64,000 nucleotides of DNA from Escherichia coli (GCF_030013205.1 NZ_CP122648.1), one strand, 5' to 3'. Positions 52,201-55,200 are shown, counted from the stretch's first letter. Program-made: the numbers.

Positions 52201-55200
52201 GGCAGCGTTGACGATAGCGACGAAATACAGCGCAATCTGAATGACACTAACTACAACCGCATGTGGGAATACAATAACCGCGGCGTGGGTAGCAAAGTGG
52301 TTGCAGAGGCGAAGAAGTAAAAAAGAAAACCCGATAGTCTGAACCATCGGGTTAATGAAACTGGGCGCTATATTTCATAGCGCCTTTTTTTACATCTGAC
52401 GGTTTTTATTGAAGTTAATCAAACTACCCGCCTTGATAATCTCGCGCTCTTCGGCCGTCAGGCTTTCCATGTAAAGCGTAATTTCCGTTACCGGCGCATC
52501 TTCATGGATCACATAACCTTTAAACGTCGTACCCGGATTATCCAACGCTGCTTTAATGCCAGGGATGTAAATGTAATCCCCCACTTCAAACGTTGGTGCT
52601 TCCGCCATTTGCAGCGGTAACATCCCCCAGTTGATGACGTTAGAACGGTAGCGTTTAGTCGCGTATTCCTCGGCAATATTCGCCAGACCGCCAATCACAC
52701 GCTGGCAGCTCGCCGCCTGCTCACGCGCAGAACCATCGCCTGGTTTCACCGCATAGACCATGCTGCCAATTTCAGTTTGCAGCGGATCAATATGCTCCTG
52801 ACCAGCAATCTGCTTAATGCGCGCAAACACCTCTGTCAGCTCACTGACATTCCCCGCCAGACGCTGATTTTCCAGTTCAGCAGTCGCTTTACTTCTGCCA
52901 ACATAACCTGGATCGCGGCGTGACAGGGTAAACTCCGCCAGACCAATCGGATTTGAACGATAAGAAGAGGTTTCACCGGAAGGAATCAGTTCGTCGGTGG
53001 TGGTCACTTCGTCGAGGATCTTCGAGCACACTTTGAGGACGATATTGTCAGTCAGCGCACCCAATTCCGGCCAGTCTTTAATGTTCGGTCCGTAAATCAG
53101 CGGTTGCTGGGTCGCCCCTTTCACAAAGCCCTGATAAACACGGTTTTTATACGGCGTTACATCGAAGGCGTACTCCGGCACGTTGTCCCAGCAATCCAGC
53201 TCGCTGGCAGAGGTTAAATAGCCACCGTTTGCCGCAGTCGCAGCGATGGAACGAGCGTCCATCAACGCCACTGCTGACATCTGCCCATTGGCTGGCTTAG
53301 AGCCTTCGCGGTTCGGGAAGTTACGCGTGGTGTGGCGAATACTCAAACCGTTGTTGATTGGCGTATCGCCCGCGCCAAAGCATGGGCCGCAGAACGCGGT
53401 TCTGATGATTGCGCCTGCGCCAATCAAATCTGCTACCACGCCTTTTTTGGCTAAATCCATAAACACCGGCTGTGATGACGGGTAAACCGCCAGCGAGAAG
53501 GTGTCATTGCCACAGGATTGACCGCGCAGTGCATTCGCCGCCGCGATGACGTTTTCGTAGTTACCGCCAGAACAGCCCGCGATAATCCCCTGCTGCACTT
53601 TCAGGCGACCATTTTCCACTTTATCCAGCAGCGAGAGTTTGGCTTTACCGTGTGCCACGCGTTCGGACTCAATTTCAATCTCACGCAGAATGTCGGTCAG
53701 GTTCTGGCTCAGCGTGTCGATTTCATACACGTTGCTCGGGTGAAACGGCAGCGCAATCATTGGCTTGATGGCGCTTAAATCAACGCTGATGCAGCCATCG
53801 TAGTACGCCATCGGTTGAGGGTTAAGCTGGCAGTAATCCTGGCCGCGACCGTGCAGCGCCAGCCAGTTATGGACTTCTTCATCGGTTTGCCAGACAGAAC
53901 TTAAACAGGTCGTTTCAGTGGTCATAACGTCAACGCTGTTACGGAAATCGGTAGAGAGCGCAGCAACACCGGGACCTACGAATTCCATCACTTTGTTTTT
54001 GACGTAGCCGTTTTTGAACACGGCACCGATGATAGCCAGCTCCACATCCTGTGGCCCCACATACGGCGCAGGTTTTCCGGTCAAATGCACCGCAACCACG
54101 CCCGGATAGTCGATATCCCAGGTGTCATTAAGCAGCTGTTTTACCAACTCGCCGCCGCCCTCACCGACTGCCATTGTCCCTAATGCACCGTAACGGGTGT
54201 GGCTGTCTGACCCGAGGATCATTTTGCCGCCGCCTGCCATCATCTCACGCATATATTGATGGATGACCGCAATATGCGGAGGCACAAAAATACCGCCATA
54301 ACGCTGAGCCGCCGATAAACCAAAAACATGGTCATCACCGTTAATGGTGCCGCCGACGGCGCAAAGTGAGTTATGGCAGTTGGTCAGCACATACGGCAGC
54401 GGGAAACGTTCCATACCGGACGCTTTAGCGGTCTGTACAATACCAACAAAGGTAATATCGTGAGAGGCTAATGAATCAAACTTAATTTTAAGTTTATCCA
54501 TATTTCCGGACGTATTATGAGAAGAGAGAATAGACCAGGCAATAGTGCCTTTTTTTGCTTCTTCTTTTTTAATTTCGCCGGTGAAATGTTCTTCGGCAAT
54601 TATTTCGTTATTACTGGCGAGAAACACGCCTTTTTCAGATAACTTGATCATCAAATGCTCCAGATATCTGCGCACCGAGAAGTGCGCAGAAAGATAATAA
54701 ATGGATATACTCTAAATAATTAGAGTTGCAGGAAGGCGACTAGCGAGTGAATCCCCAGGCGCTTACATAAGTAAGTGACTGGGGTGAGCGAACGCAGACG
54801 CAGCACATGCAACTTGAAGTATGACGAGTATATTTACAGCATGTTCCAGCCGATCAGCATATTCCACCACCACACGCCGAGGGTGATATGCACCAGGAAG
54901 GTTAATATCGTCAGTACCGCACCGACCAACCACCAGGATTTAATATCGTTATAACCCACGCCAAAGATGACCGGACCTGCCGCGCCGCCATAGTGAGTAA
55001 CCATGCCGCCATAGGAGTTGGAGAACAACAGTGCCAGCGCGGTTAACATTAACGGTGCGCCGGAGACGTTCGCCAGCATGGCAAATACCGGTAACATAGC
55101 AACGATATAGGCACTACCGGAAGCGAAGAAATAACGAACGATGATGCTGAGGAAAATAATAACGAAGAAAGCAACGTTACCGTGACCATCAAATGCCAGG

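What the first reader, a model, noticed from the sequence alone, without database searches (positions are those of the whole stretch)
54725..54825. ERIC repeat between ybhJ and ybhI
The intergenic region contains a sequence matching both commonly used ERIC primer sites (gtgaatccccaggcgcttacat / aagtaagtgactggggtgagcg), indicating a full ERIC/IRU element. Such elements are strain-variable markers.
Basis: seen in the sequence. Interest (0 to 1): 0.2.

Follow-up and report, generated by a model that had tools for sequence, protein, structure and literature searches.

The report
Ordinary ERIC repeat between ybhI and ybhJ
This is a complete, well-known 127-base ERIC mobile repeat sitting one base after the ybhI stop codon; nearly all E. 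coli, including K-12, carry it at this site, so it is ordinary and not a strain-variable marker here.

Summary
ERIC2 matches exactly at 54769-54790 (+). ERIC1R matches with one mismatch at 54747-54768 (-). Neither is expected by chance.

The element is larger than reported: 54706-54832, exactly 127 bp. It aligns end to end with the published E. coli ERIC consensus (87%) and a Salmonella copy (91%, no gaps).

It lies between ybhI (stop codon 54834-54836) and ybhJ (start codon 54649-54651), both on the minus strand, in a 182-bp spacer.

An empty site in two Escherichia genomes (spacer 57 bp) shows a 125-bp insertion at a TA that was duplicated, as expected for an ERIC MITE.

The "strain-variable" reading fails at this locus. 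K-12 MG1655 has the same element, and so do at least 5331 of about 5346 complete E. coli genomes that hold the locus. E. albertii and E. whittamii have it too.

The ERIC is far better conserved than fourfold-degenerate sites in the flanking genes.

It folds into a long imperfect hairpin, and the pattern scan found no promoter-like or terminator-like site in the spacer. It is therefore probably co-transcribed. By analogy with Yersinia ERICs, it may change the relative stability of ybhI and ybhJ mRNA. That step is inferred, not shown.

Verdict: already known, low interest.

The parts
54706..54832 (-). Full-length ERIC (IRU / RU-1) element, 127 bp. The minus strand is the mRNA sense of ybhI-ybhJ and reads TATACTCGTCATACTTCAAG...TTATTTAGAGTATA.
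   Evidence: End-to-end alignment to the E. coli consensus and to SeRU-1. blastn of the consensus against the window gives one hit, E = 2e-40.
54747..54768 (-). ERIC1R primer site, one mismatch (G instead of T at 54760 in mRNA sense).
54769..54790 (+). ERIC2 primer site, exact match.
54753..54784 (.). Central conserved inverted repeat (core hairpin): CCCCAGGCGCTTAC / GTAAGTGACTGGGG.
   Evidence: Inverted repeat I3, 14-nt arms, 86% complementary. It forms the apical stem in the folds.
54705..54730 (.). One terminal inverted-repeat arm. It is the 3' arm in mRNA sense and contains the AU-rich stretch AAUUAUUUAG.
   Evidence: Inverted repeat I1, 26-nt arms, 77% complementary.
54808..54833 (.). The other terminal inverted-repeat arm. 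It is the 5' arm in mRNA sense and starts one base after the ybhI stop codon.
   Evidence: sequence read
54706..54707 (.). TA target-site duplication, one copy.
   Evidence: The empty-site allele reads TAA-a-TA-tcc... in L003 and GF4-3. Its spacer is 57 bp, i.e. 182 minus 125.
54831..54832 (.). TA target-site duplication, the other copy.
54834..56267 (-). ybhI (477 aa, anion permease / putative tricarboxylate transporter). Its TAA stop is at 54834-54836.
52390..54651 (-). ybhJ (753 aa, aconitase-family putative hydratase). ATG at 54649-54651, Shine-Dalgarno GGAG at 54658-54661.
   Evidence: The listed ORF starts at an upstream GTG; the ATG gives the K-12 length of 753 aa.
54667..54690 (-). Separate 9-bp perfect stem-loop between the ERIC and the ybhJ ribosome-binding site. 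It is not part of the ERIC and is also present in alleles without the ERIC.
   Evidence: Inverted repeat I5; folds of the orthologous spacers.

Best explanation
The feature is a full-length 127-bp ERIC (also called IRU or RU-1) miniature inverted-repeat transposable element. It inserted at a TA dinucleotide one base downstream of the ybhI stop codon and duplicated that TA. The insertion is old. It is essentially fixed in E. coli, K-12 included, and is shared with E. albertii and E. whittamii. Those points are shown here (confidence about 0.97). The following steps are inferred. ybhI and ybhJ are on the same strand, and the pattern scan found no promoter-like or terminator-like site between them, so the element is probably transcribed inside a ybhI-ybhJ (probably ybhH-I-J) mRNA. 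There it folds into a long imperfect hairpin. By analogy with Yersinia ERICs that lie next to stop codons, a ribosome terminating on ybhI would hold the 5' arm open. That would expose the AU-rich 3' arm (AAUUAUUUAG) to RNase E, so the upstream ybhI message would decay faster than the downstream ybhJ message. I put the probability of this mechanism operating at this locus at about 0.3-0.35. The stated confidence refers to the identity of the element and its insertion history.
For: Identity:
- Primer sites match.
- The element aligns end to end with the published consensus and with SeRU-1.
- It has terminal and central inverted repeats.
- It is multi-copy: median 11 matches per E. coli genome, range 2-19.
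- A copy between cusC and cusF differs from the common ybh allele only at its final base, which is the flanking TA position.

Insertion at TA:
- L003 and GF4-3 have a 57-bp spacer reading TAA-a-TA-tcc.
- The filled allele has a 182-bp spacer reading TAA-a-TA[..123..]TA-tcc.

Age and fixation:
- K-12 has the element.
- 5331 of 5426 complete genomes have the ERIC plus flanks.
- E. albertii and E. whittamii have it at the same site.

Constraint:
- The ERIC is 127/127 identical between E. coli E69 and E. albertii, while 33% of fourfold-degenerate sites in ybhI and ybhJ differ (binomial P = 7e-23).

Co-transcription and folding:
- The scan found no promoter-like or terminator-like site in the spacer on the minus strand; terminator-like sites follow ybhJ at about 52328-52384.
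- The RNA fold in mRNA sense is -45.6 kcal/mol, z = -5.9.
- The consensus fold of 5 copies has 39 pairs, 2 of them with changes on both sides.

Mechanism precedent:
- The Yersinia work is summarised in PMC2229807, PMC3184786 and PMC10969869.
- The cusC-cusF copy has the same orientation relative to transcription and starts 6 nt after the cusC stop.
Against: No expression data were examined, so co-transcription, hairpin formation in vivo and RNase E cleavage are all untested for this locus. The primary Yersinia paper could not be read, so I could not confirm that this orientation is the 'B' orientation of that study. I infer it from the AU-rich arm lying 3' in mRNA sense. The window's allele carries a G-to-T change at 54722. 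This breaks one stem pair and removes the G of a GA|AUU motif present in the common allele, which argues against tight constraint in this lineage. The strong conservation could also come from gene conversion between copies rather than from selection. PMC9068703 treats ybhHI as a cluster and mentions ybhJ separately.
Confidence: 0.9

Rival explanations
1. The ERIC is an inert passenger: an old MITE insertion with no effect on ybhI or ybhJ expression. Its sequence is kept uniform by gene conversion between copies or by hairpin-templated repair, not by selection for a function.
For: The cusC-cusF copy matches the common ybh allele at every position except the final base, which is the flanking TA position, as concerted evolution would give. 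E. whittamii changed three adjacent core bases at once to make a perfect palindrome, and the window's T-to-G at 54760 moves the same way. Both are typical of template-switch repair. The window's lineage has 4 changes in 127 bp of ERIC against 3 in 559 bp of coding flank versus K-12 (Fisher P = 0.025). Lineages without the element exist (L003, GF4-3) or have deleted it (L004).
Against: Zero differences in 127 bp between E. coli E69 and E. albertii, against a 33% difference at fourfold sites, is hard to obtain by conversion alone unless conversion is frequent. Occupancy in E. coli is 99.7% of genomes holding the locus. ERICs next to stop codons alter transcript levels in Yersinia (reviews).
Confidence: 0.45
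2. One reading: the element is a strain-variable marker, present in this strain but variable among E. coli strains and perhaps absent in K-12.
For: ERIC copy number differs among strains (2-19 matches per genome), and 14 extra ERIC loci are reported in strains other than K-12 (PMC10969869). One complete genome, GF4-3, has an empty site here.
Against: K-12 has the same element. 5331 of about 5346 genomes with the locus carry it. Most absences examined are deletions of the whole locus, as in BLR(DE3).
Confidence: 0.03
3. The ERIC hairpin acts as a transcription terminator or attenuator that separates a ybhHI unit from an independently transcribed ybhJ.
For: The hairpin is long and stable. PMC9068703 writes 'ybhHI' and mentions ybhJ separately.
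Against: No U run follows the hairpin, and the scan reports no terminator-like site in the spacer. It also finds no sigma-70-like promoter for ybhJ between 54652 and 54833 on the minus strand. Species without the ERIC have short spacers of 26-91 bp between the two genes, typical of an operon.
Confidence: 0.08
4. The element encodes a small or antisense RNA of its own, like the Vibrio V_AS5 RNA that it resembles.
For: Rfam RF02818 (V_AS5) aligns over its full length, positions 1-129, with E = 1.4e-5.
Against: The score of 34.9 bits is far below the family's gathering score of 96. No promoter-like site was found in or next to the element on either strand. The resemblance is most simply explained if V_AS5 is itself a transcript of a Vibrio ERIC-like repeat.
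Confidence: 0.03

Closest known systems
ERIC / IRU / RU-1 elements of Enterobacteriaceae (Sharples & Lloyd 1990; Hulton et al. 1991; Wilson & Sharp 2006)
   Same: Length of 127 bp, conserved core carrying both ERIC-PCR primer sites, terminal inverted repeats, TA at both ends, intergenic position, hairpin fold and multiple copies per genome.
   Different: Nothing of substance. This allele has 3 substitutions relative to the common E. coli allele at the locus (54760, 54741, 54722). At most 34 complete genomes come within 99% of the window over the 251-base stretch around it.
Yersinia enterocolitica ERICs adjacent to stop codons (De Gregorio et al. 2005, as summarised in PMC2229807, PMC3184786 and PMC10969869)
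   Same: It is placed right after the stop codon of an upstream cistron and before a co-oriented downstream gene. It has the same hairpin architecture, with an AU-rich arm on the 3' side in mRNA sense.
   Different: The effect on mRNA stability has not been tested in E. coli or at this locus. I infer the 'B' orientation rather than having checked it against the original paper, which was not available.
ERIC copy between cusC and cusF in E. coli (seen in BLR(DE3), NZ_CP020368.1 555660-555787)
   Same: 126 of 127 positions match the common ybh allele. The orientation relative to transcription is the same, and it starts 6 nt after the cusC stop inside an operon.
   Different: It sits at a different locus with different flanking genes, and its last base differs (TATG instead of TATA).
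Rfam RF02818 V_AS5 (Vibrio antisense RNA AS5)
   Same: It aligns over the whole model and shares the core GAGUGAAU..CC...GUGACUGGGGUG.GCGAACGC.
   Different: It scores 34.9 bits against a gathering score of 96, so it is not a member of that family as curated, and it comes from a different genus.
Correia/NEMIS elements of Neisseria and other bacterial MITEs
   Same: They are small non-autonomous elements with terminal inverted repeats and TA duplication. They are co-transcribed, and their RNA hairpins are cut by an RNase (PMC10969869, PMC2229807).
   Different: The sequences are unrelated, and Correia elements are processed by RNase III rather than RNase E.

Membership tests
ERIC / IRU / RU-1 | Unit of about 127 bp that aligns over its whole length to the family consensus | tested here: met
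   The element is 127 bp. It shows 113 identities over 130 columns to the E. coli consensus and 116/127 without gaps to SeRU-1.
ERIC / IRU / RU-1 | Highly conserved central inverted repeat (the region from which ERIC1R and ERIC2 were designed) | tested here: met
   ERIC2 matches exactly and ERIC1R with one mismatch. The core inverted repeat is at 54753-54784.
ERIC / IRU / RU-1 | Terminal inverted repeats with 5'-TA-3' at both termini | tested here: met
   TATACTC / GAGTATA are perfect 7-bp termini. The extended arms are 26 nt and 77% complementary.
ERIC / IRU / RU-1 | Insertion with duplication of a TA target | tested here: met
   The empty alleles in L003 and GF4-3 have one TA and a spacer 125 bp shorter.
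ERIC / IRU / RU-1 | Multiple dispersed copies in the genome, in intergenic regions | tested here: met
   E. coli genomes have a median of 11 places each. One example is the cusC-cusF copy. The copy studied here is intergenic.
ERIC / IRU / RU-1 | The transcript folds into a long stem-loop | tested here: met
   MFE is -45.6 kcal/mol (z = -5.9) in mRNA sense and -54.7 kcal/mol (z = -7.6) on the other strand. The consensus fold of 5 copies has 39 pairs. This is prediction only.
ERIC acting as an mRNA-stability element (Yersinia model) | Co-transcription with flanking genes, and RNase E-dependent, orientation-dependent lowering of the upstream transcript | not testable with these tools
   Only indirect support is available: the same strand, no promoter-like or terminator-like site in the spacer, and a position 1 nt after the stop codon.
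Rfam RF02818 V_AS5 | Score at or above the curated gathering threshold (96 bits) | tested here: not met
   The score is 34.9 bits.
Intrinsic (Rho-independent) terminator | GC-rich hairpin followed by a U run | tested here: not met
   The scan reports no terminator-like site between 54652 and 54833 on the minus strand.

The most novel reading that the evidence does not exclude
The ybhI-ybhJ ERIC is not a passive relic. It would be a selectively maintained intercistronic RNA element that uncouples the expression of the transporter gene ybhI from that of the hydratase gene ybhJ. This would explain why it is 127/127 identical between E. coli E69 and E. albertii while a third of neighbouring fourfold sites have changed. 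The existing natural alleles without the ERIC (GF4-3, L003) and with a deleted ERIC (L004) make this directly testable.
Probability: 0.3. Interest if true: 0.35.

Novelty: already known. Interest (0 to 1): 0.1.

Why it matters
It matters little as a discovery. ERIC elements have been described since 1990-91, and this copy is in the K-12 reference genome. The useful results are corrections. The element spans 54706-54832, and at this locus it is fixed rather than variable, so it has no value for telling E. coli strains apart. Two minor points may interest people who study MITE function. First, the copy is conserved far more tightly than neutral sites. Second, natural empty-site and deleted alleles exist, which give a ready-made comparison for testing whether an E. 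coli ERIC affects operon mRNA stability.

Tried and rejected
- I tried to read the two primary papers, De Gregorio et al. 2005 and Wilson & Sharp 2006. Neither is held. I used the consensus quoted in PMC2759123 and the reviews instead. I therefore could not confirm the A/B orientation naming, or whether Wilson & Sharp list this locus.
- Rfam has no ERIC family. The only hit was the sub-threshold V_AS5.
- I considered a terminator or a ybhJ promoter inside the spacer. The scan found neither.
- I considered a coding role for two ORFs that overlap the element: 54763-54933 (-, 56 aa) and 54775-54954 (+, 59 aa). Both overlap ybhI in other frames, and the ERIC reading frame described by Delihas is not in frame with ybhI. 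I rejected them without further tests.
- I searched the window for a second ERIC. blastn at word size 7 found none.
- I did not collect a large set of ERIC copies for a proper covariation test. The 5-sequence fold has too little variation to prove structure.
- I checked whether the RN|WUU RNase E motif is present in the 3' arm by eye only. The common allele has GA|AUU, but the window's allele has UA|AUU. I do not rely on this.

Full report
**1. Observation**

- ERIC2 matches exactly at 54769-54790 on the + strand.
- ERIC1R matches with one mismatch at 54747-54768 on the - strand.
- None of 100 shuffles of the window gave a match to either primer with up to three mismatches.
- The two sites abut and point outward, as they do in the ERIC core.

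**2. True extent and identity**

Reading the flanks and scanning for inverted repeats shows the element runs from 54706 to 54832. That is exactly 127 bp, with perfect 7-bp termini (TATACTC...GAGTATA), extended 26-nt terminal arms and a 14-nt central inverted repeat.

In the orientation of the minus strand it aligns end to end with two published sequences quoted in PMC2759123 Table 1a:
- the 127-nt E. coli consensus of Wilson & Sharp: 113 identities over 130 columns;
- the Salmonella SeRU-1 copy: 116/127, no gaps.

blastn finds no second ERIC in the window.

**3. Context**

- The spacer is bounded by ybhI (54834-56267, minus strand, 477 aa; TAA at 54834-54836) and ybhJ (52390-54651, minus strand, 753 aa from the ATG at 54649-54651).
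- The names come from RefSeq annotation of matching genomes and K-12.
- The spacer is 182 bp, the same as in K-12 MG1655 (803321-803502).
- The ERIC begins one base after the ybhI stop codon.
- A separate 9-bp perfect stem-loop (54667-54690) and a GGAG Shine-Dalgarno (54658-54661) lie between the ERIC and ybhJ.
- The pattern scan finds no promoter-like or terminator-like site in the spacer on the minus strand. Terminator-like sites follow ybhJ.

**4. Distribution**

K-12 MG1655 has the same element at the same position, with four substitutions.

Among complete E. coli genomes:
- A 251-base query (ERIC plus 62 bases on each side) is covered at 80% or more in 5331 of 5426 genomes.
- A query made from an empty-site allele finds the flanks in 5346 genomes. 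In the listed rows the flanks are split into two pieces spanning 431 instead of 306 bases, which is the 125-bp insertion.
- Occupancy is therefore about 99.7% of genomes that have the locus.
- About 80 genomes lack the locus altogether. In BLR(DE3) this is a deletion running from galM into ybhJ.
- One complete genome, GF4-3 from a guinea fowl, has an intact empty site.

Among one genome per species:
- The ERIC is present at the same site in E. coli E69, E. albertii and E. whittamii.
- It is absent from a divergent 'E. coli' species representative (L003) and from Citrobacter, Edwardsiella and Intestinirhabdus orthologous spacers.

The 'strain-variable marker' interpretation therefore fails for this copy.

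**5. Insertion mechanism**

- The empty allele reads TAA-a-TA-tcccttcatt, with a 57-bp spacer.
- The filled allele reads TAA-a-TA[123 bp]TA-tccatttatt, with a 182-bp spacer.
- This is an insertion at TA with duplication of that TA, as described for ERIC and other bacterial MITEs (PMC2229807 Table 1; PMC3184786).
- Escherichia sp. MOD1-EC7003 (L004) has a 67-bp spacer in which 'ttatttaaaaata' abuts the right flank. This resembles the ERIC 3' end 'ttatttagagtata' and suggests a secondary, imprecise deletion.

**6. Conservation**

- Between E. coli E69 and E. albertii the ERIC is 127/127 identical, while 198 of 599 fourfold-degenerate sites in ybhI and ybhJ differ (binomial P = 7e-23).
- The window's copy differs from E. 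albertii at 3 of 127 positions, against a 29% difference at fourfold sites (P = 3e-15).
- The cusC-cusF ERIC in BLR(DE3) differs from the common ybh allele only at the last base.
- This could reflect purifying selection, gene conversion between copies, or both. I could not separate these.
- In contrast, the window's allele carries three derived substitutions (54760, 54741, 54722). At most 34 complete genomes come within 99% of the window over the 251-base stretch around it.
- Against K-12 there are 4 changes in 127 bp of ERIC and 3 in 559 bp of coding flank (Fisher P = 0.025).

**7. Structure and likely action**

- As RNA the element folds into one long imperfect hairpin on either strand: -45.6 kcal/mol, z = -5.9 in mRNA sense, and -54.7 kcal/mol, z = -7.6 on the other strand.
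- A consensus fold of five copies has 39 pairs, two of them with changes on both sides. The sample is too small to prove structure.
- The genes are co-oriented and the scan found no promoter-like or terminator-like site between them, so I infer co-transcription.
- The best-supported functional model comes from Yersinia, as summarised in PMC2229807, PMC3184786 and PMC10969869. There, ERICs next to stop codons lower the level of the upstream transcript in an orientation-dependent way, because translating ribosomes prevent folding and expose an RNase E site in one terminal repeat.
- In this copy the 5' arm starts one base after the stop codon. The 3' arm carries AAUUAUUUAG in mRNA sense.
- The cusC-cusF copy has the same orientation and a similar distance from its stop codon.
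- I therefore propose the same mechanism here with a probability of about 0.3. The main rival is that the element has no effect on expression.
- The downstream 54667-54690 hairpin could protect the 5' end of a processed ybhJ message. However, it exists independently of the ERIC.

**8. Comparison with known families, and novelty**

Every defining feature of ERIC/IRU that can be tested in sequence is met (see the membership table). Rfam has no ERIC model. The only hit, V_AS5 from Vibrio, aligns along its full length but scores 34.9 bits against a threshold of 96. It is probably a transcript of the Vibrio ERIC-like repeat.

The finding is an already known kind of element, at a locus where the reference strain also has it. 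Interest is low (0.1).

Noticed in passing
window 54667-54690 (minus strand); L006, L007, L008, L010 just upstream of ybhJ: A stem-loop about 6-15 nt upstream of the ybhJ Shine-Dalgarno is kept across Escherichia, with or without the ERIC. It recurs at the same place in some Citrobacter species with different sequence: E. coli has CUGCGCAC/GUGCGCAG and C. youngae has CUGUGCUCU/AGAGCACAG, which is two pairs changed on both sides. It is not followed by a U run. It may be a conserved 5' structure for ybhJ, an aconitase-family gene.
   Followed up: partly
window 54705-54828 (+): Rfam family RF02818 (V_AS5, Vibrio antisense RNA) aligns over its whole length to this ERIC (34.9 bits, E = 1.4e-5, below the gathering score of 96). 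That Rfam family is probably built on a Vibrio ERIC-like repeat.
   Followed up: no
L018:4436-4562 (E. whittamii); window 54760: E. whittamii changed three adjacent core bases (CTC to TGA), turning the core into a perfect 14-bp palindrome. The window's single T-to-G change at 54760 is the middle one of those three and also adds a pair. This looks like hairpin-templated (quasi-palindrome) correction.
   Followed up: partly
L004:4435-4501 (Escherichia sp. MOD1-EC7003): The 67-bp spacer has 'ttatttaaaaata' abutting the right flank. This is probably a remnant of the ERIC 3' end left by an imprecise deletion, whereas L003 and GF4-3 have a clean single-TA empty site.
   Followed up: partly
L053:1501-1628 (BLR(DE3), cusC-cusF spacer): A second ERIC lies inside the cusCFBA operon. 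It differs from the common ybhI-ybhJ allele only at its last base, has the same orientation relative to transcription, and starts 6 nt after the cusC stop codon.
   Followed up: partly
L055:11206-13350 (BLR(DE3) NZ_CP020368.1 746205-748349): BLR(DE3) lacks ybhI, the ERIC and most of ybhJ because of a deletion joining a truncated galM to a 102-nt ybhJ fragment next to ybhC. This accounts for at least some of the roughly 80 complete genomes without the locus.
   Followed up: partly
L054 (E. coli CV261, NZ_CP040316.1 1698616-1700070): In this strain ybhI is annotated as 1455 nt instead of 1434, a 21-bp in-frame insertion. It is unrelated to the ERIC.
   Followed up: no
L009:4435-4631 (Intestinirhabdus alba): The ybhI-ybhJ spacer in this species is 197 bp, with GC-rich repeated motifs (cacaaccccg...gcgcc) that do not match ERIC. 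It may hold a different repeat element at the same intergenic position.
   Followed up: no
L032-L040, L050 (Veillonella): Veillonella genomes carry ybhI-like (about 54% identity) and ybhJ-like (about 57%) genes, but with ybhJ upstream of ybhI. The gene pair is shared with Negativicutes in a different order.
   Followed up: no
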